A stretch of DNA of 64,000 bases from an uncultured bacterium (GTDB lineage Bacteria > Cloacimonadota > Cloacimonadia > Cloacimonadales > Cloacimonadaceae). The stretch covers positions 28,976 to 92,975 of the forward strand of contig CALDSN010000098.1 of NCBI GenBank assembly GCA_937924555.1, given 5' to 3'. The first letter of the stretch is position 1; each line of letters opens with the position of its first letter. Below the pieces are notes generated by a model, which was given only the letters and a program-made list of their open reading frames with translations, did not search any database and was not told where the DNA came from. A program made the position numbers and the translations under genes. Of the stretch, positions 16,433 through 30,441 are shown one piece after another.

Positions 16433-17074
16433 TCAGCGCATCATCAGGTCACGCTGTTTAATTGCCACAATCCTGCGCAGTCCCAGGTCTGCATCGGTCT
16501 TTTCCCACAGGATCTCATGTTTCAGGTTCTCGATATCGGTCAGTTTCTGGGATTTGTAGAACACCAGCAGTCCCGATGGCTTAAGCAGTCTGCGTAGCGG
16601 TGCCAAATATCTTTCTTCCAAAGCCACTGCTCTGCTTACGATGATATCATAGCTGGGGCGACCTGCCAAAAAGGCATAGTCTTCCACCCTGGCGCATACT
16701 ACAGAAGTGTCATTCAAGGATAGTGCTTCGCTGAATTCCTGCACGGCATGGGTCTTTTTTTGCACGGAATCCAGCATCACCATGGTGCAATCCGGAACCA
16801 CCAACTTCAATGGTATTCCCGGGATTCCACCCCCTGAACCGAAGTCCAGCACTGTCTTATCACTCAAATCCAAACATTCCAGAGCAAGCAGGCTGTCAAG
16901 GAAATGCTGCACCCAATATTTCTCTGCAGGGAGGTTGCGGGATACCAGATTAATCATTCGGTTGGCAGAGGACAAAAGCTGAAAATAGTGCTCAAATCGT
17001 CCCATCAACTGGGCTGGGTTGCTAAAGCCTCGTTCCGTGATATATTCTTCAAAGCGTTTCTTGGGTTCGGTCAT
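16433..17074 (-). CDS. rsmG: 16S rRNA m7G527 methyltransferase
   Basis: NLVS...HFLDSL, LDFGSGGGIPGIPL, VSRAV; directly upstream of parA. Confidence 0.93.
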   Translation of the reverse strand: MTEPKKRFEEYITERGFSNPAQLMGRFEHYFQLLSSANRMINLVSRNLPAEKYWVQHFLDSLLALECLDLSDKTVLDFGSGGGIPGIPLKLVVPDCTMVMLDSVQKKTHAVQEFSEALSLNDTSVVCARVEDYAFLAGRPSYDIIVSRAVALEERYLAPLRRLLKPSGLLVFYKSQKLTDIENLKHEILWEKTDADLGLRRIVAIKQRDLMMR

Positions 17075-19602
17075 GGTGTTTCCTCCGGAAGGTTGCGGAT
17101 GAGTGCTTGCACCAGAAATGATTCATCCTTGTTCATGGTCTTAAGCGCAGCCAAAGCTTGCTTGCTACCGATTTGGCGCAAAGATCTTGCTGCGATATAG
17201 CGATATCTCTCGCTGGGGTGAAAGGCATATTGACTGATGGTTTGGATGCTCTCCTCGCTATTGATGCTTCCCAATAGTGAAATGCAGGAGGTGATATACC
17301 TCTTTGCCGCCAAATGCTTGCGGATAGGCACGATAAGGGTGCTGTCTCCAACCCCTGCAATCAGGCTCATTGCCATCTTGGCTTTTGTACTATCCGCATC
17401 TTCCACAAAGTCGAACAAGCGGCTTTTGAAGGCGGGAACCTCATCCAAAAACGCTTCCAAAGCACGATACTCCAGCCCCGAATCTGTGCTAAGCTTATGC
17501 TCCACAATATAGGGCAAAGCTTCCTCACTACGCGCAGCCAAAACCTTGCGGGCTTCTTTAACCCTATTCACCGCAGAGCCAACTTCCCACTCCGCTGCGG
17601 CGGCAAACACTTCGGCAATAGGCGCATCGGCAGCCACCAAGGGATCCATCTCTATTGCTTCCACCTTTTCCTGCACCTGCTCCGAGGTCTGGTCAATATC
17701 CCTGCCAATGCCGTATGAGCCTTTTTGCCATGTCTTGCCATCGGCTTTGGTGCTATCGGGATAGCTATCTTTTCCGCCCATATCCAGGAACAGCCCAATG
17801 CTCCCCGTGGAGCGGGCAAAGGCACCATTGCCATAGTTCTGGGCTTCATTGCGTTCATAACGGTCATCTCCGTTCTTATCCACGAAGATACCCACAGAGT
17901 TGCTAAGCCCCACCCCATTGCCACCTTGTATGGAATAGGCATCGTTGCCGCCATTGTCTATCAAGGCACCCACGCCCCAATCATGCCCGGCACCTTGTCC
18001 CGGTCCGTGACGACTGTAATAGGTGTCGTTGCCGCCACCGTCATACAGGAAGCCGCAGGATAGATGTATCCCGGAGCCTTGGGGGTAGTAGATGGCATTA
18101 TACACATCGTTGCCGCTTTCGTCTATCAGCACTCCTGTGGCATACCAATAGCCCACACCCTGGGCATAAACACCACCGAGATACTTGTCATTTCCTTTTT
18201 GGTCATAAACCAGTCCCAAACCTCCGGCAAAGTCCGAACGCATGCCAAAGCCCATTCCTTGCCCCATGCTGCGGTAATCATCCGGCATCAGAGGAGCATG
18301 GAAGTATTTACCTCCCAATTGGTAAACATCAGCCCCGGCATAATCCAACACGGCACCCACTCCCCGCACACTGCCCATGCCTTGTGCCATGGTTGTGGCA
18401 GTATAGGTGTCGTTCCCGCTGTAATCCACCAGCATGGCAATCCCTTGCATGGCAGCAGCTTGGGAGAACAATCCGCTTTTATAGATATCCTCTCCGGCAT
18501 AGTCCACATGCAGGTTAAAACCCAGCAGACTGCTGAAGGCATAATCATCGGTCAAATATGTGTCATCACCTTTGATGTCAAAGGACACCCCAAGCCCTGC
18601 CAAAGAGCAGAACATTGCGGTTGCTTTTGTGTTGCGAAACAAATCGTTTCCGCTGTAATCCACCAGCAAATAAGCAAGGTTCTTCCTTCCTGCTTGCAGG
18701 TTAAGCTCATAGATGTCGTTGCCCGCAGGCTCCAGCATCAAACAAACAGGTTTATCGGCATAGTCGTATTGGTCATAATAATCCGCCATCACCGTGCCGA
18801 TAACCATCAAGCCGTGCTTAGTGTTTTTCACTATTGGCTTACGGTTGGTGTACAGCAACTTTGCAGCACCGTTTTTCAGCACCTGTGAGGCAGCCAGGTA
18901 TTTGAGGGATGCATTCTGCAGGAACTCGTAGTTTATATCCTGAAATATCTCTTCCAAAGCCTCGGTAGAAAGGCTATCCGGCTTGGGAAGCTGCATTGCG
19001 GCAAGCAGTTCGTTATATTTTTCCCTGTCCTCTTCTTCAGCGAAGGCATTCAGGTAAAAAGCAGTGAGGCTATCCAGGCGGGCAGTGCCAATACCTGTGC
19101 GAATGGCGTTCATTTCACCGCTTAAGCCGTTTAACACCTGCTCCCAAAACTTAAAGATGTCCTTGGGTTTGCGCACCTTGGCTTCAAACATCTTTTCATA
19201 GGCATAATATGCTTCGGCATACACATCAATGGCATCGGGAGTGCCCCAGGCTATACCGGCAAAGTGGTTTAACTGCACAGCGGGGGACGAGCTGTCCATC
19301 CCGGCGCAAATGCCGCGTAAATCTCCCACTTGATTGATGCCGGCAAGCGGATTCTGCAACGCATTCATGTGCCATGCGCTCTTCTGCTTGCAAGAGAGAT
19401 CCCAATCCTTTTCAAAACTGAGGGACTTGCTGCTCAAGCCTGCTTCTTTCAGCATGGCATCAAGCTGCATCGTGGTTGCTTCACCCAGCACGGAATAGTC
19501 CGCAGATAAACTATCAAGCTCCGAAGCCATAGTGGTTTGGGCATATATTAGGGAACATACAAACAATGTAAGCAGAATGGTAAAAAAGCTTTTATGCAAC
19601 AT
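17071..19602 (-). CDS. Large exported protein with ~12 DxxGxDxY glycine-rich repeats and C-terminal HEAT-like repeats
   Basis: Signal peptide from 19602 (RBS GAGG); repeats DYSGNDTY, DESGNDVY etc.; helical C-terminus. Confidence 0.75.
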   Translation of the reverse strand: MLHKSFFTILLTLFVCSLIYAQTTMASELDSLSADYSVLGEATTMQLDAMLKEAGLSSKSLSFEKDWDLSCKQKSAWHMNALQNPLAGINQVGDLRGICAGMDSSSPAVQLNHFAGIAWGTPDAIDVYAEAYYAYEKMFEAKVRKPKDIFKFWEQVLNGLSGEMNAIRTGIGTARLDSLTAFYLNAFAEEEDREKYNELLAAMQLPKPDSLSTEALEEIFQDINYEFLQNASLKYLAASQVLKNGAAKLLYTNRKPIVKNTKHGLMVIGTVMADYYDQYDYADKPVCLMLEPAGNDIYELNLQAGRKNLAYLLVDYSGNDLFRNTKATAMFCSLAGLGVSFDIKGDDTYLTDDYAFSSLLGFNLHVDYAGEDIYKSGLFSQAAAMQGIAMLVDYSGNDTYTATTMAQGMGSVRGVGAVLDYAGADVYQLGGKYFHAPLMPDDYRSMGQGMGFGMRSDFAGGLGLVYDQKGNDKYLGGVYAQGVGYWYATGVLIDESGNDVYNAIYYPQGSGIHLSCGFLYDGGGNDTYYSRHGPGQGAGHDWGVGALIDNGGNDAYSIQGGNGVGLSNSVGIFVDKNGDDRYERNEAQNYGNGAFARSTGSIGLFLDMGGKDSYPDSTKADGKTWQKGSYGIGRDIDQTSEQVQEKVEAIEMDPLVAADAPIAEVFAAAAEWEVGSAVNRVKEARKVLAARSEEALPYIVEHKLSTDSGLEYRALEAFLDEVPAFKSRLFDFVEDADSTKAKMAMSLIAGVGDSTLIVPIRKHLAAKRYITSCISLLGSINSEESIQTISQYAFHPSERYRYIAARSLRQIGSKQALAALKTMNKDESFLVQALIRNLPEETP

Positions 19603-19757
19603 CTTAACCTCTTTGAGAGGCAAATATCTGTCATGGTATCAAATTGTCAAATCCTTTCCCGTTTCTTATCCCGGTTTGTGCCACCACAGGATTAATACGG
19701 GGTATCTGGGGTGCTGTCCCTAATTCCAACATCACTTCACCACCACATATTTCCGAG

Positions 19758-19807
19758 GTGATTCCCTCATCCCACCCGGGAGTCACGAGGGAGTCACCTA
19801 AGAATGA
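19758..19807. repeat. Palindromic repeat family B, copy 1 (GAGGGAGTCAC 11-mers)
   Basis: 39/40 identical to 33049-33088. Confidence 0.88.
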
Positions 19808-19936
19808 TGAGACATTTCTTGCATGAATGTTCGATATACGCAGGATGAAATTAAAAAAGAGGAAAAGAGGATAAGAGAGGGTTAAGCGGTAAACGTTAGA
19901 CGTTAGACGCGCTGCGAACAATTAGCAACCATTCGA

Positions 19937-20498
19937 GTCCCAGCGGGACGGCATTTTAGATAGAAAAGGTGTATGAACTACATATCCTCCCCCCTGAAAG
20001 TCCCATCGGGATGGCAAACTCACCCTCCCATATACCCCTCCAATTAATGATTAATATGCCATCCCGATGGGACATGACATCGATGCCACTTGTGAAGAGG
20101 CTAATAGGATAGCAGGTTAATAATGCAATGTAGGGGGCTTTCCCTGTGTGTTTGCCCAATGAATGCTAATGGAATAAACTATATCCTGCCGTTAAGTTCG
20201 GAGGGCGACATAGCATAGCGACGGGTTCGGAGCATTTGCGCAGCAATGCGCAGACCCTCGTAACGACACCCCATAAAGTGAATAAGCCCCCTGTGGGCGA
20301 CAGATATTAGCCCGGGGTGCAGCGATAGCGTAACCCCGGGTATGGATTGCTGAACCCTTAACAAAATAGATACCCCCCCCCTCCAAGGGCGGATTCTATC
20401 CGCCCTTGGAGGGGGGGGGTAATAAATGATATACATCTAAGCTACTCATATACCTCGGGTTTACACCTCAGGCTAGTATCTTTACGCTCCGTTGGAGC
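19937..20498. repeat. Cluster of REP/BIME-like short hairpins (RAYT-associated style)
   Basis: GTCCC-agc-GGGAC, 17-bp IR 20000-20016/20057-20073, CCCGGGGT...ACCCCGGG, GCTCC-gtt-GGAGC. Confidence 0.6.
20371..20421. repeat. Perfect 24-bp-arm palindrome with C9/G9 ends
   Basis: TA-C9-TCCAAGGGCGGAT-tct-ATCCGCCCTTGGA-G9-TA. Confidence 0.92.
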
Positions 20499-21143
20499 TT
20501 TGCTGTTATGCCCTTTTCTATGCGATTAAATTAAACGCTTCCTCAATAGACCTTGAAATTCGCTGGAGCATTTCTCCACCAAAACCATTCCCCTGCGGTA
20601 GCAACATCGGCGCTATGTATGTTCCTGCCTTTCAAATGGGATAAGCCGGGTCACAAGACACTCCAGATACATGAACTCCCAGCCCTTAAGCAATGCCCAT
20701 AATGATGTGAGGCAATGTGGTTAGTGCTTTTTCCGTTGATAAACATGGCATTGTTATACCATCGCTGAATAACTATACGATGCTTCTACGGATGAGTAGT
20801 AACAAACCGATAATTTTATCCTCATATACAGCTATGAGTTACAGAGATTCTGGGGAACACTTTGGTAAAAATAGAACTAATATACAAAGGAGGAAAGAAA
20901 ATTATGGATATCGTGGCTAATTGGCTAATTAAACTTAGGGCGTCATTAAAATTACATGGTGAATCGAGCAAAAAACAGAGCTTGACTAGGCAGCATAACC
21001 AATAGGGAGGTAATGATGACTTAGATGGATTCACAACTCGCATAGCAATGTGATGGGGGTTTAATTCCCTTAACACAAAGACTTCAAACATAATATTTCT
21101 TTTAATCACTAGGACAAGTAAATAACAACACAAAGGAGAAACA

Positions 21144-23327
21144 ATGAACAAGAGTTTTATGATCATTTTACTGGGTGTTCTAATTACAGTTTTTTCGATA
21201 GCCCAGATTTATGCCTGCGCAATGACTGCAGTAGTATGCCAAGGTGATTATACATTGCAAAGCGGAATGGTTGATTTCGGTGATGGCTCTTCTGGCGGTG
21301 GAGAATCTTATTGGCTTTACAATCAAAGCAGTTCTAACCAAGACGGACATGGAATGGTGTATTATCATAGAGCGGGATATCCAGGGCATAGCAATAAAGT
21401 ACTGCAATGCAATAACCCTATTGATTCTTTCTTCGGTGGAAGTAACAACCACGTTTATAGGCACAGTGGTCAGTTGAGCAATGCTCCTTACTCAAATAAC
21501 TATAATTGTTTTGTAGGTGCAGCAAAACAGAAACAAGCAAAGATATTCATGGGTCATGTAAGGTTAAGAAGTGATGGCCCTTTGGGAGCTTTTGCGCCTT
21601 TTGTATATCGCCATATAGACTATGTTAATGGAGTGCCCGACACTACTGATTATAGTTTTTCCCATCATGGCACAGTGAATAAATGGAGTCTGTATAATAT
21701 ACCCAGTTTTCAGAGTTGGCTGTCTAATTACGATATCCAGAATATACTAGACGGCAGTCCTACTTACTACTCATTAGCCGACAGTGTGAACAACTATGTA
21801 GACTCAGACTACCTCTTTTTGTGGTTAGTTAAATACATAGAAGATAATGCTGGAGATGTGAAACGAGGCTTAGTGGAAGGGTTGACAGCTCTAACGACAA
21901 ATAACATCGACGGGCAGAAAAACATTTTATTCTCTGATGGGACTGGAGTATATGCTTATTCCAACAACATCGATGCGATTCACAAAATGTCATACAAATC
22001 ACTACAATCTATCTATCATTACATAAGAAGCTCTGGTACCGTAGAAAGCGATTGGACTTCTCTGTCAACGCACAATCTATACTATTTCCCGACACAAGGG
22101 CAAATGGAGATTACTTATAATGCTGATAATTGTGTAACTGCGAGCTTTGCCCTGAAACAAGGATTGAACTGGATTGGATTCCCTGTTTTAGAAAGTACTT
22201 ATGGCTTATATCCAGATTACACACTCAGAGACGTCAATCAATATGCAACTACATTACAAACTAAAAACTTGACTCAACTACAACCAGCTTGGATAATTGA
22301 CGGCGATACACATCTGTGGCCTAATGGTGTATCCCTTTCCAGAACAAACGGCTACATTCTCAACATGAGTAGTGCTTCACCCGTATATGAATACTCAACC
22401 TGTGGCCAGAGAACCCCAAATAGCACTGCTTTGAGTTTATACCAAAACAACGAAAACTGGGTCCCATATTTTGTTACATACTCTCAGACACCTGCAAATG
22501 CCTTTGGTAGTAACTACTCACATGTTACTGCAATATATGCTCAAGACTGGTATAGATACAAGTACAAAGGGCAGTGGTACGGCTATATTCAACAAGGTGC
22601 AACAGGTACTATGGACTATGGGAAGATGTATAAAGTATATGTTGATCAAACCATATCAAACTTCACTTGGTCTGCTTCTGCCAGAACACAAAGTTTTGTG
22701 AAAGAGAACACTAGCTACTTTCAGTTTGCAGAACAGCCAGAATACCAAGCAATTGTGATTGAATCCATTCCTGACAGCCCAATCTTTGATGAAATTGGAG
22801 TGCTAAAGGATGGGTTATGTGTTGGTGCTCTTAAGTTTAATGGTTATCCAATCAATCTTCAAGTGTATGACAACTCTTCACCGGATGAGTATGATTACGT
22901 GCTCTATTCAGGTGCTAAGAGTAGCAACTACATGGAAAAGAAGTATTCGTCTACATCAATAGATATTAAAAATTCAGTGATTGATAGCGGTAGGCATCTA
23001 TTCTCTCTTGTAAGCCTATCGGGCAGTCAAGAAAGTGAAACAGCAGTAAGTCCTGCACTATCTGCGAGCATCTACCCCAATCCAATGCATGGTATCACCA
23101 ATATAGAAATCCAAGCTACCGCAAAGAGTGCAGTTGATGTTAGCATTTTCAACCTAAAGGGGCAATTGGTTAAAGAATTGGTTTCTAGCGAGATATCCAA
23201 GGGAAACAACACCTTTATCTGGGATGGGAAAGCTAATGATGGACGACCTGTAGCTAAAGGTATATACTTCTGTAGGATAATATCACCAAACAATCTATTG
23301 ACAAAGAAGCTGATAGTTTTAGATTAA
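21144..23327 (+). CDS. Secreted class II glutamine amidotransferase-like (Ntn hydrolase) with T9SS-type C-terminal domain
   Basis: Signal peptide then Cys25; NQDGHGMVYY, IFMGHVR, FSHHG, DSDYLF, NILFSDG; C-terminal YPNP...WDGK...GIYF. Confidence 0.75.
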   Translation: MNKSFMIILLGVLITVFSIAQIYACAMTAVVCQGDYTLQSGMVDFGDGSSGGGESYWLYNQSSSNQDGHGMVYYHRAGYPGHSNKVLQCNNPIDSFFGGSNNHVYRHSGQLSNAPYSNNYNCFVGAAKQKQAKIFMGHVRLRSDGPLGAFAPFVYRHIDYVNGVPDTTDYSFSHHGTVNKWSLYNIPSFQSWLSNYDIQNILDGSPTYYSLADSVNNYVDSDYLFLWLVKYIEDNAGDVKRGLVEGLTALTTNNIDGQKNILFSDGTGVYAYSNNIDAIHKMSYKSLQSIYHYIRSSGTVESDWTSLSTHNLYYFPTQGQMEITYNADNCVTASFALKQGLNWIGFPVLESTYGLYPDYTLRDVNQYATTLQTKNLTQLQPAWIIDGDTHLWPNGVSLSRTNGYILNMSSASPVYEYSTCGQRTPNSTALSLYQNNENWVPYFVTYSQTPANAFGSNYSHVTAIYAQDWYRYKYKGQWYGYIQQGATGTMDYGKMYKVYVDQTISNFTWSASARTQSFVKENTSYFQFAEQPEYQAIVIESIPDSPIFDEIGVLKDGLCVGALKFNGYPINLQVYDNSSPDEYDYVLYSGAKSSNYMEKKYSSTSIDIKNSVIDSGRHLFSLVSLSGSQESETAVSPALSASIYPNPMHGITNIEIQATAKSAVDVSIFNLKGQLVKELVSSEISKGNNTFIWDGKANDGRPVAKGIYFCRIISPNNLLTKKLIVLD

Positions 23328-23402: not shown

Positions 23403-25760
23403 ATGCTGACAACAAGACTGAATGGCAGTAGACCGACGCAGAATACAAGCATAGTCATATGGGTAATGCTATTCATTGCCATTTCGGTATTGCATATTGG
23501 CAGCATAAGTGCTGAAGTAATCGTTGTGGCATCTGACAACACCGGACAAGCTAACACCATTCAGGCCGGCATTAATCTGGCTGCGGTTGGTGATACGGTG
23601 TTAATCTCCCATGGGATTTGGACTGGTGCCGTTGTGATTGATAATAAACCGATAACAATTGGGAGTTATTTCATAATTGATGGCGATTCCACCCATATCA
23701 GCCAGACCATTATTGACGGTGAGGATACCAGAACCGGTATTATAATTCAAAACTGTAGCGGTGCTGTTGATACCTTAAAAGTGATTGGACTTACAATCAC
23801 GAATTGCCGTAGTAATTGGTATCCTGATACATCTGATTATTCAGTTGGAGGAGGCATAGGTATCCGTTCGTCTGATGCAAAAGTTATCAGATGTAAAATC
23901 TTCCACAATAGGGCTTATTATGGAGGCGGTATTGGGGTATATCAAGCATCTGTTTACCTATATGGTAACGAAATATTTTCAAATAGCGCTATTACATCTG
24001 GTGGAGGACTGAGTGGAAGAGGGTATAGTAATATGTACATATACTTTGATGGGTATGACCTAAACAGCGTATTTGATAACTATGCCTCGCGAGGTTGTGA
24101 CATCAGTTATGCATACAACAACTATCCTACTTCTGTTATCCTCAATAAAGGATCTGTCAGTTCTTTAGACCCATATTTCTATTTTTTGCCGGGTCAAACA
24201 ACAGTAAATGTTCTTCAGCCGATGATTACTCAAATAGACCACGACCTTTGGGTTAGCCCAGATGGTGACAATAACAATAATGGAGAAACACCACTGTCGC
24301 CACTGAGAAATATTTCATATGCCCTAGCAAAGATAAAACCCATAAGTGGTATTACTCGTACTGTTCATGTAATGCCTGGAACATATTCACGGAGTCAAAC
24401 TAATGAGGCTCTTCCCCTTCAACTAAAAAGCGACGTTAACCTATATGGTTCGGATATGGAAAGTGTCATTCTCGATGCAGAGCATTATGGAAGTTTCATA
24501 TGTGGTAAAGACGCTCAATCAAACCTTTTGATAAAGAACCTATCTCTCATAAATGGTTACTCAACAAACGACTATTTGTTTTGGATGGAGGATGTCGCTA
24601 GTGGGCATACGAACAACCTGACTGTAGATAGCATCCACATTAGAGACTCATGGGTGAAGTTTGATGCTTTCAGGATAATGTCTTGTCACAACCTCACGGT
24701 GAACAACCTCATCATTGAAGATTCTCAAGTGGGTAATGGGTTCAACATATATGCTTATGAGACAGGTAACTTCTCAAATTTCAGAGTACAGAGGCTTAGT
24801 TCAACCAATTATGATATGTATAATTCATCCTGTACGGGTGGAGGAATAGGAAAACCATTAAGTGCAGCAACATTGCAGACCACGATTAATATCTCAAACT
24901 TCCTAATTACCGATATTGTTGATACCTCCCAAATCTGGCAGAACATGCCCAGTGGGTTGTCCATTAGTGTGGAAGGTGGCAATTGCGATTTGAATGTTAG
25001 CAATTGCACTATAGCCAATAATAGCTCAGTTACTCAGAGTGGAGGATTGAACATAACGCTTGAGAACTGCAATATCCAAGTGTATAATACTGTTGTATCG
25101 GGTAATACACCATATGAAGTAGCGATGGCTGCTTTCGATGAATCCTCCTTTGCCGATGTTTCATTCAGTAATTGTATGGTTACCGGTGGTAGTGATAGTT
25201 TGTTCCTGCTTTCCGGGGACATCTCTCACACTTGGCTAGAAGGTAATCAATCTGGTGTTCCACTGTTCAGAGGAGGGGATGATATCCACAACCCGCAGTA
25301 TTACAGCCTTTCTGCCTCTTCTCCCTGCATCGATGCGGGAACACCCGACACTACGGGCTTAAGCCTTTTGCCCTATGACCTGGCGGGGAACATGCGCATC
25401 TGGAATAATGTGATAGATATGGGCTGCTTTGAGTTTGGTGCTCCACCTGTGGGAGTTGACGACCCTGTGGTTCCCCAGCCTACCGGGGCTATCTACGCAA
25501 GCAACTACCCCAATCCCTTTAACCCCGAGACCAATATCAGCTTCTTCCTGCCGGAAGCGGGCAACACCGAGCTGTGCATCTATAACCTGAAAGGGCAGGT
25601 AGTGCGCAGATTGATAAGCTCCCCCTTGGGAGCAGGCACGCACCGGGTGCTGTGGGATGGCAAAGATGAAAGCAACAGCCCTGTTGCCAGCGGGATGTAT
25701 CTCTTCCGGGTGCAGTGCGGTAAACATCAGTTCAGCGGCAAGATGGTATTGGCGAAATAG
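23403..25760 (+). CDS. Secreted parallel beta-helix (pectin-lyase-like/DUF1565) protein with T9SS-type C-terminal domain
   Basis: TIQAGIN...GDTVLI, GGGI repeats, WVSPDGDN...ISYAL, SPCIDAG...DMGCFE, NYPNPFNPET. Confidence 0.85.
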   Translation: MLTTRLNGSRPTQNTSIVIWVMLFIAISVLHIGSISAEVIVVASDNTGQANTIQAGINLAAVGDTVLISHGIWTGAVVIDNKPITIGSYFIIDGDSTHISQTIIDGEDTRTGIIIQNCSGAVDTLKVIGLTITNCRSNWYPDTSDYSVGGGIGIRSSDAKVIRCKIFHNRAYYGGGIGVYQASVYLYGNEIFSNSAITSGGGLSGRGYSNMYIYFDGYDLNSVFDNYASRGCDISYAYNNYPTSVILNKGSVSSLDPYFYFLPGQTTVNVLQPMITQIDHDLWVSPDGDNNNNGETPLSPLRNISYALAKIKPISGITRTVHVMPGTYSRSQTNEALPLQLKSDVNLYGSDMESVILDAEHYGSFICGKDAQSNLLIKNLSLINGYSTNDYLFWMEDVASGHTNNLTVDSIHIRDSWVKFDAFRIMSCHNLTVNNLIIEDSQVGNGFNIYAYETGNFSNFRVQRLSSTNYDMYNSSCTGGGIGKPLSAATLQTTINISNFLITDIVDTSQIWQNMPSGLSISVEGGNCDLNVSNCTIANNSSVTQSGGLNITLENCNIQVYNTVVSGNTPYEVAMAAFDESSFADVSFSNCMVTGGSDSLFLLSGDISHTWLEGNQSGVPLFRGGDDIHNPQYYSLSASSPCIDAGTPDTTGLSLLPYDLAGNMRIWNNVIDMGCFEFGAPPVGVDDPVVPQPTGAIYASNYPNPFNPETNISFFLPEAGNTELCIYNLKGQVVRRLISSPLGAGTHRVLWDGKDESNSPVASGMYLFRVQCGKHQFSGKMVLAK

Positions 25761-25887
25761 AGCATTCTTGGGGCAGACACATAGGGGAAGCCCCTACATC
25801 ACATTATTCACCTGTTAACCAGCTAACCCGCTAATTTAATCACAAATCTGTCACCAAACCCCAAATCTGTCACCCGCATGGTAAAGA

Positions 25888-27159: not shown

Positions 27160-28143
27160 ATGATAAGGATACAGAATTTAAGCCGCAACTTCGGGAATCT
27201 GAAGGCGGTGGATAACATCAGCTTCGACATTAAGGACACGGAGATATTGGGCTTTTTGGGACCCAATGGAGCCGGCAAAACAACCACACTGCGGATGCTG
27301 GTTGGATATTTGCAGCCCAGTGGCGGCAGCATAGAGCTGGACGGCAAGAGCATCTTTGCCGATCCCTTGGCAGCCAGCAGTCAAATAGGGTATTTGCCGG
27401 AGCAGAACCCCTTGTATGATGATATGAGTGTGTCGGAGGCTTTGGCGTATTTTGGTGCCTTGCGCAGCATGAGTAAAGCGGTTTTCAAGGCAAGAAAGGA
27501 ATTCGTGGTGGCAAACTGCGGGTTGGCAGAAGTGTTGAACCAGCGCATCGGGACATTATCCAAAGGCTATCGTCAAAGGGTTGGTTTGGCGCAGGCAATA
27601 TTGCACGACCCACGCATCCTTATCCTGGATGAGCCTACCTCCGGACTGGATCCCAACCAGATAATGGAAATCCGCGACCTTATCCGCACCTTGGGCAAAG
27701 AAAAGATGCTTATCCTTTCCAGCCATATTATGCAGGAAGTGCAGGCACTTTGCGACCGAGTGGTGATTATCAACAAAGGCAAGATTATTGTGGACGACCA
27801 AAAGGAAAACCTGGGCAACTATCTGGAGAATAGCGAAGTGCTGCATCTTGAAGTAGAAGGTGAAGGGATAGAGTTTGGCGCATTTGCAGAGCAGTATGCC
27901 GGGCTTGAACTGCAAAGCGAAGCAGTTGATGAAAGGCATTGCATACTGAAGCTGAAACAACCCAAGGGTATGGATTTACGTCAGGATGTATCCCGATATA
28001 TAAACGAAAAAGGATGGCTTATCCTGGAAATGCGGGTGGAAAAACAGAGCTTGGAACAGATATTCCACCGTTTGACGGGGGAAGATAACAGTGTGCATTT
28101 TACAGCACCTCAAACGGATGAGAACATCGAGGAGCAACAATGA
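27160..28143 (+). CDS. ABC-2 transporter ATP-binding subunit (GldA-like)
   Basis: GPNGAGKTT, LSKGYRQRV, LDEPTSGLDPNQI, SSH. Confidence 0.93.
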   Translation: MIRIQNLSRNFGNLKAVDNISFDIKDTEILGFLGPNGAGKTTTLRMLVGYLQPSGGSIELDGKSIFADPLAASSQIGYLPEQNPLYDDMSVSEALAYFGALRSMSKAVFKARKEFVVANCGLAEVLNQRIGTLSKGYRQRVGLAQAILHDPRILILDEPTSGLDPNQIMEIRDLIRTLGKEKMLILSSHIMQEVQALCDRVVIINKGKIIVDDQKENLGNYLENSEVLHLEVEGEGIEFGAFAEQYAGLELQSEAVDERHCILKLKQPKGMDLRQDVSRYINEKGWLILEMRVEKQSLEQIFHRLTGEDNSVHFTAPQTDENIEEQQ

Positions 28144-28862
28144 GAGCAATTTGGATAATAGCTAAAAAAGAATACCAACTTGCCATGCGCTCCATCTCCA
28201 CCTACATTGTGCTTACGCTGTTCTTGGTGGTAAGTGGCTTGTTCTTCTCCAATATCATCTTCAAAGTGGGGCTGGCGGAAATGCGCAGCTTGTTTGAGAT
28301 CATGCATGTGGTATTTGTATTCTACATTCCTGCCATAACCATGGGAAGCATAGCCAGGGAAAGGCAGAGCGGCACACTTGAGCTTCTGTCCACCCTGCCG
28401 ATAAAGCTCTCCTCCATCATCTGGGGGAAAGTGCTTTCCTGCTTGATGCAGCTTAAGACCTTGGTAGCTTTCACGCTGGTGTTTTTGGGGATAATCGCCA
28501 TCTTTGGCGAAGGGATAGACTATGGTGCGGTGGTGTGCGGATATCTGGGCTTGATTCTTGCGGGAACAGCCTATATCAGCATTGGGGTGTTCGCCAGCAG
28601 TTTACCGAGCAACCAGATACTGGCCTTTGTGCTGGCACTGTTGATTTCTGCCTTCTTCTATGTACTGAAGTTCCTCATTGTGCTAATCCCCATGAACCTG
28701 ATGCAGCCCTTGATGTATTTGAGTTTCGACAATCACCTTGCCAGTTTTCTGAAGGGAGTGGTGGATACCAGAGACATCCTGTTCTTCCTTGCCGTGACGG
28801 CAGTCTTTGCCTTGTTGGCGGAGTTTAACCTGCAAAGCAGAAACATGATGCAGGAGCGCTAG
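28140..28862 (+). CDS. ABC-2 permease (GldF-like)
   Basis: IAKKE, ITMGSIARERQSGTLELL, KGVVDTRDILFF. Confidence 0.9.
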   Translation: MRAIWIIAKKEYQLAMRSISTYIVLTLFLVVSGLFFSNIIFKVGLAEMRSLFEIMHVVFVFYIPAITMGSIARERQSGTLELLSTLPIKLSSIIWGKVLSCLMQLKTLVAFTLVFLGIIAIFGEGIDYGAVVCGYLGLILAGTAYISIGVFASSLPSNQILAFVLALLISAFFYVLKFLIVLIPMNLMQPLMYLSFDNHLASFLKGVVDTRDILFFLAVTAVFALLAEFNLQSRNMMQER

Positions 28863-28863
28863 G

Positions 28864-30441
28864 ATGAAGATACTTAATAAGAACAGAAATACCGTCCTAA
28901 GCACTCTGTTACTGAAACTGGGGATAATCCTGCTGGTGCTGTTGGTTGCCGGGTATCTGAAGCTGAGGCTGGATCTATCCTATAACAAAGCCTATTCCCT
29001 CAGCGCAGTTAGCAAAGAGGCAGTACGCAGCCTGAAAGATAACATGGTACTAAAGATCTATGCCAGCGAAGAGCTGCCTCCCGAAATGAGCAAGCTGGAT
29101 AGATACTTCAAAGACCTGCTTACCGAGTATCGCATGGCAAGCCGGGGTAAGTTCCATTATGAGTTCATCCGGGGCTTAAGCATGGATGAACTGCGCACCC
29201 AAGCCGAAGAGAATGGCTTGAGCAGTATGTTCTTCAACATCTATGAGAACGATAAAACCACCAACAAAGAAGTTATCTATGGGGTGGTGTTTGAGTATCA
29301 GGGTAAGTTCGATTCCATGAACCTGCTTCCCCGCATAGAGCCGAAGCTGGAGTATGAGCTAACCCTTAAGGTGCAGAAGCTCTCCAAATACATCCTGCCG
29401 GAAATCTCTGTGTTCCGGGATTCGCTTTTCGTGCAATTACCTTCTAAGCGTTATGAGCAAGCCTTATTTTCCAACTATCAGGTGGTGGATACCGACCTGC
29501 TAACCCCTCCCAAACAGACGGATGTGATGATCTTTGGCGGAGTGTTGGACAGCCTGTCCATGACCCAGCTTTACAACTTGGATCAGTACGTGATGAAAGG
29601 GGGCAAGCTGTTGGTGATGCAAGACAGAGTTGCTACCGACGGCAGTGCTATCTTCCCGTTGGATTCGAATATCTTCCCCTTCCTGGAGAACTATGGGGTG
29701 CAGATTGATGAGAATATGGCAATGGATATCTATTGTGACATCCGTCAAATAGGGGTGGAGAACTCTTTGCCTTTCCCCATTTATCCGGTGCTACGCGGTT
29801 CCGATCACCCTATAACGCGTAATATTGCGGACATTGTAATGTATCTTTCCAATGGCTTACATTTTGTGAAGAAGGATGGTTTACGCTTCACACCTATCCT
29901 CCAAACCTCTGCAACCAGCGGGATACTGGAAGCACCGGACTTCCTTTTGGAAGAGAAGGTGTTCCGCAGCCCGGATCCACAGCTTTTCAGTAAACCTCCT
30001 ATCACCATGGGGGCTATTGTGGAAGGCAAGGCTAACAGCTTTTTTGCCGCTAAACCCGAGTACCAGAAGCCGGGCTTTGTGAAACAAACAGACAAGTTCC
30101 AGATGGTGGTGTATGGCGATAGAGACCTTAGTATTGATTCTGATAAAGAAATCTTTGCCGACCGCAATTACATTGTGCTGAACGCAGTGGATTGGATGCT
30201 GAAACGCAATTCCATGATCGCTATTCGCTCACGCCATATGCAAACAAGCATCCTCAACATCCCCTACTATATGCAGAAACACGAGATAGTATGGGGAGAT
30301 GTAGCCAAGATAGAGCGGAATATCAAGACAGGCATCAAGCTTGCCAGCACCGTTGTACCTTCCTTGTTGTTGATAGGCATAGGGTTGTTTATGGCATTAA
30401 GACGCAAGCAAATGCAAGGGTTTAAGAATGAAGAAGAATAA
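28864..30441 (+). CDS. GldG-like ABC transporter auxiliary component
   Basis: RLDLS..KAYSLS, LEYELT, LDQYVMKGGKLL, C-terminal TM. Confidence 0.85.
   Translation: MKILNKNRNTVLSTLLLKLGIILLVLLVAGYLKLRLDLSYNKAYSLSAVSKEAVRSLKDNMVLKIYASEELPPEMSKLDRYFKDLLTEYRMASRGKFHYEFIRGLSMDELRTQAEENGLSSMFFNIYENDKTTNKEVIYGVVFEYQGKFDSMNLLPRIEPKLEYELTLKVQKLSKYILPEISVFRDSLFVQLPSKRYEQALFSNYQVVDTDLLTPPKQTDVMIFGGVLDSLSMTQLYNLDQYVMKGGKLLVMQDRVATDGSAIFPLDSNIFPFLENYGVQIDENMAMDIYCDIRQIGVENSLPFPIYPVLRGSDHPITRNIADIVMYLSNGLHFVKKDGLRFTPILQTSATSGILEAPDFLLEEKVFRSPDPQLFSKPPITMGAIVEGKANSFFAAKPEYQKPGFVKQTDKFQMVVYGDRDLSIDSDKEIFADRNYIVLNAVDWMLKRNSMIAIRSRHMQTSILNIPYYMQKHEIVWGDVAKIERNIKTGIKLASTVVPSLLLIGIGLFMALRRKQMQGFKNEEE

What the first reader, a model, noticed from the sequence alone, without database searches (positions are those of the whole stretch)
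21144..23327. Secreted class II GATase-like Ntn hydrolase activated by signal-peptide removal
Seen: MNKSFMIILLGVLITVFSIAQIYA|CAMTAV places Cys directly after a predicted SPase I site. It is followed by motifs paralleling EgtC/YafJ-type GATase II (DGHG, GHVR, HHG for HNG, DSD for DSE, LFSDG), two 'L..G.NW' domains and a T9SS-type CTD. Known: Ntn hydrolases need a free N-terminal Cys, normally from Met removal or autoproteolysis, and class II GATases are cytoplasmic. Inference: an extracellular amidohydrolase (gamma-glutamyl, peptide or amide substrate) using the signal peptidase as activator. The Asn-to-His oxyanion change hints at new specificity, relevant to amino-acid/peptide fermentation.
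Basis: partly seen in the sequence, partly recalled or inferred. Interest (0 to 1): 0.7.

Follow-up and report, generated by a model that had tools for sequence, protein, structure and literature searches.

The report
Secreted glutamine-amidotransferase-fold hydrolase, Cloacimonadota
This gene encodes an exported enzyme built on the normally cytoplasmic class-II glutamine-amidotransferase fold; its catalytic cysteine sits directly after the export signal, and it belongs to a large, unstudied family of such exported enzymes with no known substrate.

Summary
The ORF 21144-23327 (727 aa) is real and its quoted motifs are present. An AlphaFold model of residues 25-335 (pLDDT 86) matches PurF, EgtC, PA1307 and SPO2029 at probability 1.0. 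A family profile hits class-II GATase structures down to E=4e-16. The motifs GHVR, HHG and DSD align with the Arg, Asn-Gly and Asp of those enzymes. The C-terminus is a type-A T9SS sorting domain.

The protein is not a one-off. A profile search found 387 cluster representatives. In 93 of the 127 where the nucleophile could be placed, a signal peptide ends exactly at it (81 Cys, 12 Ser). Others carry an internal H-N|C or H-E|C junction, which implies autoprocessing.

The lipobox rule fails for the window protein and for 17 of 18 subfamily members. Cleavage after Cys+1 is compatible in only 2 of 66 outside relatives. Exposure of Cys25 by signal peptidase I is therefore the favoured reading, but it remains inferred.

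The subfamily is Cloacimonadota-specific and has Asn-to-His fixed (18/18). It is always followed by a conserved 785-aa T9SS partner gene. The substrate is unknown; conserved Arg and Asp suggest a glutamine or gamma-glutamyl amide.

Verdict: a new variant of a known kind, of moderate interest.

The parts
21132..21139 (+). Shine-Dalgarno AAAGGAGA, 4 nt before the ATG
   Evidence: read directly
21144..21215 (+). Sec-type signal peptide, residues 1-24: n-region MNKS, h-region F5-I19, c-region AQIYA
   Evidence: Hydrophobicity and the (-3,-1) rule. The PROSITE lipobox rule is not met.
21216..21218 (+). Cys25 codon: predicted N-terminal nucleophile and first residue of strand beta-1
   Evidence: Invariant in the subfamily and in the 22-sequence broad alignment A3. 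The model has beta-1 at mature residues 2-8.
21216..22133 (+). Class-II GATase-fold Ntn hydrolase domain, residues 25-330
   Evidence: AF2 pLDDT 86, pTM 0.90. Foldseek hits to PurF, EgtC, 1te5 and 3mdn at probability 1.0. Profile A3 against PDB: 3mdn 3.7e-16, 1te5 7.8e-12, PurF 9e-5.
21561..21563 (+). Arg140 of GHVR, aligned with the Arg of PurF GHVRYAT (alpha-carboxylate binder in class-II GATases)
   Evidence: R in 18/18 subfamily members and 107/109 others
21666..21671 (+). His175-Gly176, aligned with the oxyanion-hole Asn-Gly of PurF AHNG; the Asn is replaced by His
   Evidence: H in 18/18 subfamily members; in the rest N 99, H 6, D 3, A 1
21801..21809 (+). Asp220-Ser221-Asp222, aligned with DSE of 3mdn (the Asp binds the substrate alpha-amino group in class-II GATases)
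22134..23063 (+). All-beta middle region, residues 331-640, shared with at least 36 other exported family representatives; function unknown
   Evidence: blastp. AF2 pLDDT 66. Foldseek gives only generic Ig-like / beta-sandwich matches.
23070..23318 (+). T9SS type-A C-terminal sorting domain, residues 643-725 (FlgD-Ig-like)
   Evidence: Pfam PF18962 2e-11 and TIGR04183 8e-12, both above their cut-offs
23403..25760 (+). Conserved partner gene: 785-aa exported protein with a choice-of-anchor-Q domain, a beta-helix-type core (DUF1565 weak in relatives) and a T9SS CTD
   Evidence: Its core (residues 1-690) lies immediately downstream in L001, L005, L006, L008, L009, L010/L011 and L012. No + strand terminator lies in the 75-nt gap.

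Best explanation
The gene encodes a T9SS-exported, stand-alone amidohydrolase of the class-II glutamine-amidotransferase (Ntn) fold in a Cloacimonadota bacterium.

Shown: the fold; the conserved Cys25, His138, Arg140, His174, Gly176, Asp220 and Ser221; the Sec-type leader; the type-A T9SS sorting domain; membership of a large exported family; and a conserved downstream partner gene.

Inferred pathway: Sec exports the precursor. Signal peptidase I cuts at IYA|C. That leaves Cys25 with a free alpha-amino group, which acts as the general base for its own thiol, as in all Ntn hydrolases. The folded protein is then passed through the T9SS by its C-terminal domain and ends up released or surface-attached.

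The conserved Arg140 and Asp220 are the residues that hold the alpha-carboxylate and alpha-amino group of glutamine in PurF, GlmS and EgtC. The likeliest substrates are therefore free glutamine or gamma-glutamyl amides, yielding glutamate. This is the weakest step. His175 replaces the oxyanion-hole Asn and is assumed to donate the equivalent hydrogen bond.
For: Fold: Foldseek top hits are PurF, EgtC, PA1307 and SPO2029, all at probability 1.0, with TM 0.62-0.71 normalised to EgtC.

Sequence: 13 of 16 members hit Pfam GATase_4. Profile A3 hits 3mdn at 3.7e-16, 1te5 at 7.8e-12 and PurF at 9e-5, with GHvR, aH[N/H]G and DS[D/E] in register.

Conservation across 127 proteins: Cys/Ser1, His, Arg, His, Gly, Asp and Ser are near-invariant.

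Export: CTD above curated cut-offs. T9SS cargoes lose their Sec signal peptide in the periplasm before translocation, and T9SS is reported as possibly present in Cloacimonadota (PMC11285876).

Cleavage site: a signal peptide ends at the nucleophile in 93 of 127 relatives, and 12 of these have Ser, which cannot be lipidated. The lipobox rule fails for the window protein and for 17 of 18 subfamily members. A site before Cys, or one residue upstream of it, fits the (-3,-1) rule in 38 and 21 of 66 outside relatives. A site after Cys+1 fits in only 2.

The only leaderless, Cys-less subfamily calls checked (P0011) trace to a frameshift, and AYAC is still encoded in frame upstream.
Against: No signal-peptide predictor and no experimental N-terminus were available. 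Five (-3,-1) sites exist, including SIA|Q at residue 20.

The window protein alone is below the Pfam GATase_4 threshold (11.7 bits against a cut-off of 23).

The oxyanion-hole Asn is missing, so activity could be altered or lost.

The N-terminal Cys is not inside any local sequence alignment to a solved structure. Its equivalence rests on register and on the model, whose coordinates I could not inspect.

A periplasmic thiol could be oxidised. No expression data were found. T9SS machinery genes were not searched for in this genome.
Confidence: 0.62

Rival explanations
1. Same enzyme, different activation. Signal peptidase I cuts upstream at SIA|Q (after residue 20, a Gln at +1 as is common in the FCB group). 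The 4-residue remnant QIYA is then removed by Ntn-type autoproteolysis (an N-to-S acyl shift by Cys25), as with the propeptide of B. subtilis PurF.
For: A20|Q21 satisfies the (-3,-1) rule. In 23 of 93 leader-at-nucleophile relatives the -1 residue is Asp or Glu, usually with Ala at -2, so signal peptidase cannot be the enzyme that frees the Cys there. Classes B and C of the family have H-N|C or H-E|C junctions far from any signal peptide, which shows the fold can self-process. B. subtilis PurF has an 11-residue propeptide ending Glu|Cys (own knowledge).
Against: Gln at -4 is not conserved in the subfamily, where P, N, H, K and S also occur. By contrast, [YFQ]-[AS]|C is found in all members. 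The H-[NE] motif that precedes the Cys in the self-processing classes is absent here.
Confidence: 0.2
2. The Ntn domain is a pseudoenzyme or binding module. With the oxyanion-hole Asn replaced by His, it binds a glutamine-like or gamma-glutamyl ligand on the cell surface without turnover, perhaps targeting the beta-helix partner.
For: The Asn-to-His change is fixed in 18 of 18 subfamily members. The protein always pairs with a beta-helix T9SS protein and carries a large non-catalytic beta-rich region.
Against: Cys, His138, Arg140, His174, Gly176, Asp220 and Ser221 all remain invariant, which is hard to explain without catalysis. His at this site recurs in 6 otherwise canonical relatives. His can donate a hydrogen bond to an oxyanion.
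Confidence: 0.1
3. Cys25 is the lipidated +1 residue of a lipoprotein (signal peptidase II). The protein is membrane-anchored and the Cys is not catalytic.
For: A leader followed by Ala-Cys looks superficially like a lipobox. 13 of 93 relatives, and 1 of 18 subfamily members, do satisfy PROSITE PS51257.
Against: The window protein fails the rule: Gln at -4 gives a polar c-region typical of signal peptidase I substrates. 12 relatives have Ser at this position. N-acylation would block the alpha-amine that Ntn catalysis needs, yet the catalytic set is conserved. T9SS type-A cargoes are soluble periplasmic intermediates (PMC11285876).
Confidence: 0.05
4. Signal peptidase cuts after A-C-A (residue 26), removing Cys25, so the mature protein starts at Met27 and has no nucleophile.
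For: A-C-A|M is a textbook AXA site, and it is valid in 15 of 15 subfamily members.
Against: The equivalent site is valid in only 2 of 66 relatives outside the subfamily. An invariant Cys that is always discarded is not explicable. The P0011 call that starts at Met27 is a frameshift artefact.
Confidence: 0.03

Closest known systems
EgtC (ergothioneine-pathway gamma-glutamyl amidohydrolase; PDB 4zfj, 4zfk, 4zfl)
   Same: A stand-alone class-II GATase-fold Ntn hydrolase with no synthase domain. It is among the best structural matches (E 8e-9, TM 0.62-0.71 normalised to EgtC). It shares the Cys nucleophile at the chain start and the conserved Arg, Gly and Asp.
   Different: EgtC is cytoplasmic, about 230 aa and single-domain. 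Its Cys2 is freed by Met removal, and it has a canonical Asn-Gly. TIGR03442 gives no hit to the window protein, and relatives score 21-58 bits against a cut-off of 218. There is no egt gene context.
YafJ-type / GATase_4 proteins of unknown function (SPO2029, PDB 3mdn; PA1307, PDB 1te5)
   Same: These are the closest by sequence profile (3.7e-16 and 7.8e-12). The NxDG[WF]G, GHxR, HNG, DSE and SDG motifs are in register.
   Different: They are cytoplasmic, about 250-270 aa, with no leader, no extra domains and no CTD. Their functions are also unknown, so they do not supply a substrate.
PurF amidophosphoribosyltransferase glutaminase domain (PDB 1ecf, 1ao0)
   Same: Top Foldseek hits (1e-9). GHVRYAT and AHNG align to the family's GHvR and aH[N/H]G. 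B. subtilis PurF matures by removing an N-terminal propeptide in front of the Cys (own knowledge), as classes B and C of this family must.
   Different: PurF is a true amidotransferase with a fused PRTase domain and an ammonia channel, and it is cytoplasmic. The window protein has no acceptor domain.
Gram-negative penicillin V acylases / choloylglycine hydrolases (PF02275)
   Same: A mechanistic precedent recalled from my own knowledge: periplasmic Ntn hydrolases in which signal-peptide removal leaves the catalytic Cys as residue 1. I could not retrieve a supporting passage from the paper library.
   Different: A different Ntn family. The window protein shows no Pfam or Foldseek match to it. 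These enzymes have no T9SS CTD and recognise acyl rather than glutamyl groups.
T9SS type-A cargo proteins (e.g. P. gingivalis RgpB, PorU)
   Same: A Sec leader plus a C-terminal Ig-like sorting domain (TIGR04183). The middle-region model weakly resembles the PorU beta-sandwich domains.
   Different: Known cargoes are proteases, glycosidases, adhesins and similar. No paper in the library links T9SS with a GATase-type or Ntn enzyme.

Membership tests
Class-II (Ntn-type) glutamine amidotransferase fold superfamily | Four-layer alpha-beta-beta-alpha Ntn fold | tested here: met
   AF2 pLDDT 86, pTM 0.90. All 38 Foldseek matches with E<=1e-3 are class-II GATase-fold proteins: PurF, EgtC, 1te5, 3mdn, AsnB / beta-lactam synthetase and GltS.
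Class-II (Ntn-type) glutamine amidotransferase fold superfamily | Nucleophilic Cys as first residue of the mature chain, at the start of beta-1 | tested here: inconclusive
   Cys25 is invariant and immediately precedes strand 2-8 of the model. A leader ends there in 93 of 127 relatives. The actual mature N-terminus cannot be determined with these tools.
Class-II (Ntn-type) glutamine amidotransferase fold superfamily | Oxyanion-hole Asn-Gly (PurF Asn101-Gly102) | tested here: not met
   Gly176 is present but the Asn is His175, in 18 of 18 subfamily members. 99 of 109 other relatives keep Asn.
Class-II (Ntn-type) glutamine amidotransferase fold superfamily | Arg and Asp that bind the alpha-carboxylate and alpha-amino group of glutamine (PurF Arg73, Asp127) | tested here: met
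   Arg140 (GHVR) and Asp220 (DSD) align to PurF GHVR and 3mdn DSE and are near-invariant.
Class-II (Ntn-type) glutamine amidotransferase fold superfamily | Fused or partnered synthase (acceptor) domain that uses the ammonia, i.e. a true amidotransferase | tested here: not met
   The rest of the protein is beta-sandwich modules plus a CTD. It is a stand-alone hydrolase like EgtC or YafJ, not a transferase.
Pfam GATase_4 (PF13230) | Score at or above the gathering threshold (23 bits) | tested here: not met
   The window protein scores 11.7 bits, E 0.12. 13 of 16 subfamily members give hits, best E 7e-6. Canonical relatives P0068 (52 bits) and P0097 (40 bits) pass.
EgtC (TIGR03442) | Equivalog score of at least 218 bits and an egt gene neighbourhood | tested here: not met
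   No hit for the window protein. Relatives score 21-58 bits. The neighbours are parAB, rsmG, a HEAT-repeat protein, a beta-helix T9SS protein and efflux / ABC genes.
T9SS type-A cargo | C-terminal sorting domain TIGR04183 / PF18962 above cut-off | tested here: met
   45 bits (cut-off 23) and 44.5 bits (cut-off 27), at residues 643-725.
T9SS type-A cargo | N-terminal Sec signal peptide | tested here: met
   A basic n-region, a 15-residue h-region and a polar c-region with small residues at -3 and -1. This is a heuristic only; SignalP was not available.
T9SS type-A cargo | T9SS machinery (PorK/L/M/N, SprA, PorU/V) encoded in the same genome | not tested
   Only 64 kb of the genome is available. 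The literature lists Cloacimonadota among phyla that may have T9SS (PMC11285876). Three CTD proteins lie in this window.
Bacterial lipoprotein (signal peptidase II substrate) | Lipobox, PROSITE PS51257 rule, ending at the Cys | tested here: not met
   The window protein fails (Gln at -4). 17 of 18 subfamily members and 80 of 93 class-A relatives also fail, and 12 relatives have Ser instead of Cys.
Choloylglycine hydrolase / penicillin V acylase (PF02275) | Sequence or fold match to the CBAH family | tested here: not met
   No Pfam hit and none among the listed Foldseek matches. The resemblance lies only in the proposed activation mode.

The most novel reading that the evidence does not exclude
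Class-II GATase-fold hydrolases have an unrecognised, large extracellular radiation in Cloacimonadota and other uncultured lineages. In it, the Sec signal peptidase takes over the activating cut that Met-aminopeptidase or autoproteolysis performs in all studied members. The nucleophile can be Ser as well as Cys. In the window's subfamily, a His-for-Asn oxyanion hole and an obligate beta-helix T9SS partner form a two-protein surface system. That system would process an extracellular gamma-glutamyl- or glutamine-containing polymer or metabolite, such as poly-gamma-glutamate or gamma-glutamyl peptides, to feed glutamate fermentation.
Probability: 0.2. Interest if true: 0.7.

Novelty: new variant of a known kind. 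Interest (0 to 1): 0.5.

Why it matters
Class-II glutamine amidotransferase domains are textbook cytoplasmic modules. Their activation depends on freeing Cys1 by Met removal or self-cleavage.

An exported family in which the signal-peptide junction coincides with the nucleophile would add a third, host-protease-dependent activation route for this fold. This family comprises hundreds of 50%-identity clusters, most carrying T9SS sorting domains, and some have Ser in place of Cys. It would also define a new class of extracellular amidohydrolases in abundant but uncultured anaerobic-digester and sediment bacteria.

The work also corrects a recurrent mis-annotation ('flagellar basal body rod modification protein') and flags a conserved two-gene module whose substrate is unknown. 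The practical value is in enzyme discovery (glutaminase or gamma-glutamyl hydrolase activities) and in understanding nitrogen and amino-acid scavenging by Cloacimonadota. No function has been shown yet.

Tried and rejected
1. Rosetta-stone link between the 785-aa neighbour and the beta-helix region fused to ~1000-aa family members. blastp matched only the shared CTD and HHalign gave probability 3%. Rejected.

2. Lipoprotein reading. The PROSITE lipobox rule is not met, and Ser variants exist. Rejected as the main reading.

3. EgtC orthology. Far below the TIGR03442 cut-off, with no egt context. Rejected.

4. A specific fold for the middle region. The model has pLDDT 66, and Foldseek gave only generic Ig / beta-sandwich matches at TM 0.14-0.21. 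Uninformative.

5. A genuine leaderless isoform (P0011 and P0012 start at Met27). Traced in P0011 to a frameshift upstream. P0012 was not checked.

6. Expression evidence. Only DNA metagenomes and one run of unknown type with patchy contigs were found. Nothing usable.

7. Literature. No paper links T9SS with Ntn or GATase enzymes and none describes secreted class-II GATases. I could not retrieve a passage documenting the penicillin V acylase precedent, so it is cited as own knowledge.

8. Known RNA in the ORF-poor 1.5 kb upstream. Only spurious hairpin matches far below threshold.

9. Sigma-70 promoter scan. Fewer sites than in shuffles, so uninformative.
Full report
**1. The observation**

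The ORF at 21144-23327 on the + strand is real and encodes 727 aa. A strong Shine-Dalgarno sequence, AAAGGAGA, lies 4 nt before the ATG.

The C-terminal 83 residues are a type-A T9SS sorting domain, above the curated cut-offs of both Pfam and NCBIfam.

Only one literal 'L..G.NW' exists, at residue 337. The second NW, at 438, lacks the Gly.

**2. The fold**

On its own the protein barely touches Pfam GATase_4 (E 0.12, 11.7 bits). A word-indexed search found only 23 close clusters (37-78% identity). All come from metagenomes or metagenome-assembled genomes. One is mis-named 'flagellar basal body rod modification protein' because of the FlgD-Ig-like CTD.

Of 16 full-length members, 13 hit GATase_4 individually, with a best E of 7e-6.

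An AlphaFold2 model of the mature N-terminal domain (Cys25 to residue 335) is confident: pLDDT 86, pTM 0.90. Strand beta-1 begins right after the Cys. Foldseek against the PDB returns only class-II GATase-fold proteins at the top, all at probability 1.0: PurF, EgtC, PA1307 (1te5) and SPO2029 (3mdn). TM-scores are 0.62-0.71 normalised to EgtC.

A 22-sequence profile starting at the nucleophile (A3) hits solved structures as follows:

| Structure | E-value |
|---|---|
| 3mdn | 3.7e-16 |
| 1te5 | 7.8e-12 |
| PurF | 9e-5 |
| GFAT | 1.7e-3 |
| EgtC | 0.035 |

In these alignments the family's GHvR lies on PurF GHVRYAT, aH[N/H]G lies on PurF AHNG, and DS[D/E] lies on 3mdn DSE. From established knowledge of PurF and GlmS, these are the glutamine alpha-carboxylate-binding Arg, the oxyanion-hole Asn-Gly, and the alpha-amino-binding Asp.

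**3. A large exported family**

An exhaustive HMMER search of 1.84 billion cluster representatives with the N-domain profile gave 387 proteins at E<=1e-3 and 153 at E<=1e-10. I surveyed the 169 sequences in hand and could place the nucleophile in 127 of them.

| Class | Members | Description |
|---|---|---|
| A | 93 | hydrophobic leader ends exactly at the nucleophile (81 Cys, 12 Ser); 68 also carry the T9SS CTD |
| B | 15 | leader plus a 15-40-residue linker, usually ending H-N before the Cys |
| C | 7 | Cys lies more than 110 residues in, usually after H-E |
| Other | 12 | short leaders, probably mis-called starts (9), or polar leaders with no signal peptide (3) |

One class C member (P0072) is named 'DUF2341 domain-containing protein' from a Bathyarchaeota archaeon. 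Classes B and C must self-process.

Across the family the following positions are near-invariant: Cys/Ser1, His138, Arg140, Pro152, His174, Gly176, Asp220 and Ser221.

NCBI already names some canonical members 'class II glutamine amidotransferase [Candidatus Cloacimonadota bacterium]'. No NCBIfam model is specific to the group. No paper in the library connects T9SS with a GATase-type or Ntn enzyme.

**4. Where the leader is cut**

The (-3,-1) rule allows cleavage after residues 18, 20, 24, 26 and 29 of the window protein.

Within the subfamily, the site before Cys and the A-C-A|M site are both valid in 15 of 15 members. The subfamily alone cannot decide between them. The wider family can. Among the 66 class-A Cys members outside the subfamily, a site directly before Cys is valid in 38 and a site one residue further upstream in 21. 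A site after Cys+1 is valid in only 2.

The PROSITE lipobox rule fails for the window protein (Gln at -4), for 17 of 18 subfamily members, and for 80 of 93 class-A members. The 12 Ser variants cannot be lipidated at all.

P0011 and P0012 appeared to start at Met27. For P0011 the cause is a frameshift. The AYAC|AMTAVV junction is still encoded in frame upstream, and a hydrophobic leader sits in another frame.

The favoured reading is therefore signal peptidase I cleavage at IYA|C, exposing Cys25. It is not proven.

In 23 of 93 class-A relatives the -1 residue is Asp or Glu, which signal peptidase I should not accept. At least part of the family must trim a short remnant by Ntn-type autoprocessing. 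For the window protein, a cut at SIA|Q followed by removal of QIYA remains a live rival.

**5. The Asn-to-His change**

His replaces the oxyanion-hole Asn in 18 of 18 subfamily members. Among the 109 others, 99 keep Asn and 6 have His independently; the remaining four have Asp (3) or Ala (1). The change is a fixed, recurrent and tolerated variant.

Every other catalytic residue stays invariant, so loss of function is unlikely. The consequence for specificity is unknown.

**6. The rest of the protein**

Residues 331-640 form an all-beta region shared with at least 36 other representatives of 690-770 aa. This makes 'Ntn domain + beta region + CTD' the commonest architecture in the family.

The model of this region is only moderately confident (pLDDT 66). 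Foldseek finds only generic Ig-like and beta-sandwich similarities.

**7. Organism and context**

Genome-collection loci place the subfamily in Cloacimonadota. The closest is a Candidatus Cloacimonas sp. MAG at 73% identity. Hits carrying other phylum labels are all on 2.5-4 kb contigs and are probably mis-binned. The locus occurs verbatim in bioreactor-sludge and wastewater metagenomes.

The surrounding genes are ordinary chromosome: PFOR, rmlB, parB, parA and rsmG upstream, and an efflux adaptor and a GldA/F/G-like ABC transporter downstream.

The upstream neighbours vary between loci, but the downstream gene does not. The core of the 785-aa T9SS protein at 23403-25760 lies immediately after the hydrolase gene in L001, L005, L006, L008, L009, L010/L011 and L012. 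This holds even in L008, where the hydrolase is only about 26% identical to the window protein. The partner has a choice-of-anchor-Q domain, and relatives show weak DUF1565 (beta-helix-type) hits.

No + strand terminator-like site lies in the 75-nt gap between the two genes. This is a conserved two-gene module, probably an operon.

A tempting Rosetta-stone link to the beta-helix region fused in ~1000-aa family members did not hold up.

**8. Mechanism and function**

Shown: the fold, the conserved catalytic constellation, the leader, the CTD, the family context and the partner gene.

Inferred, in order:
1. Sec export.
2. Signal peptidase I cleavage before Cys25.
3. Folding in the periplasm.
4. 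T9SS translocation via the CTD (pathway as reviewed in PMC11285876).
5. Extracellular or surface-bound hydrolysis of an amide.

Arg140 and Asp220 are retained, so a substrate with a free alpha-amino-acid head group is the most economical guess. Candidates are L-glutamine or a gamma-glutamyl compound. I hold that at about 40%.

**9. Verdict**

The core of the interpretation (an exported Ntn / class-II GATase-fold hydrolase with its nucleophile at the signal-peptide junction) is supported. The activation step, the substrate and the meaning of His175 remain inferences.

The statement that such enzymes are cytoplasmic is contradicted by a large, partly annotated but unstudied exported family.

I rate this a new variant of a known kind, with moderate interest (0.5).

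Noticed in passing
window 23403-25760: A 785-aa T9SS-CTD protein with a choice-of-anchor-Q domain (beta-helix-type; DUF1565 weak in relatives). It is a strictly conserved downstream partner of the hydrolase gene in seven independent loci. Its function is unknown.
   Followed up: partly
P0046, P0061, P0064, P0069, P0113, P0129, P0134, P0163 and others: 12 of 93 leader-at-nucleophile family members have Ser instead of Cys at position 1 (e.g. ASRFWA, GSRFWA), and the members checked keep the rest of the catalytic set. A Ser nucleophile would be unusual for the class-II GATase fold.
   Followed up: partly
P0047, P0055, P0057, P0085, P0089 (class B); P0052, P0053, P0071, P0072, P0096, P0146 (class C): Family members whose Cys is preceded by a conserved H-N or H-E, either 15-40 residues after the signal peptide or hundreds of residues into the protein. 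This implies autoproteolytic maturation. One (P0072) is from a Bathyarchaeota archaeon and is fused to DUF2341.
   Followed up: partly
P0026-P0029: The nearest outgroup to the window subfamily is a set of ~330-aa proteins with a 24-residue polar, non-hydrophobic leader before the Cys. They end just where the middle domain would begin (…NWVCLSLLSC). P0026 also has HHG; P0027-P0029 have Asp or Glu at that site. Their origin is unknown.
   Followed up: no
class-A relatives, e.g. P0059 FAD|C, P0062 LAE|C, P0108 AAD|C: 23 of 93 relatives have Asp or Glu at -1 and usually Ala at -2. Signal peptidase would therefore leave one acidic residue in front of the Cys, which must be trimmed by another step.
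   Followed up: partly
window 20373-20419 (within the ORF-poor gap 19624-21143): A perfect 20-bp G/C-rich hairpin (C9TCCAAGGGCGG…CCGCCCTTGGAG9) sits in a 1.5-kb stretch with no convincing ORF, upstream of the gene. Rfam gives only spurious miRNA-hairpin matches far below threshold.
   Followed up: partly
window 25262-25822: The part of the partner gene that encodes the CTD has about 7-10 times the contig depth of its surroundings in run X1 (about 3-4 times in X2), with many variants. CTD-coding sequence is highly repeated among genes or populations and breaks assemblies there.
   Followed up: no
L005 8262-9932 and 9979-10746: In Cloacimonetes UBA5456 the partner gene is split into two ORFs (556 + 255 aa) that together cover the window's 785-aa protein. 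This is a frameshift, a pseudogene or an assembly error.
   Followed up: no
window 17071-19623 (- strand): An 850-aa protein with a leader ending LIYA|QTT (Gln at +1), a long Gly/Asp/Tyr-rich repetitive region and C-terminal HEAT repeats. It is divergently oriented from the hydrolase gene and is not conserved next to it in other loci.
   Followed up: no
P0002 (NCBI MAG 'Bacteroidetes bacterium ADurb.Bin174'); L003, L007: Subfamily members are annotated 'flagellar basal body rod modification protein' because the T9SS CTD resembles the FlgD Ig domain. Some sit on 2.5-4 kb contigs binned to Bacteroidetes, Phycisphaerales or Firmicutes MAGs, which is probably mis-binning.
   Followed up: partly
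window 27160-30441: A GldA / GldF / GldG-like ABC transporter (all below the equivalog cut-offs) lies just downstream of an RND-type adaptor gene, close to the two T9SS cargo genes.
   Followed up: no
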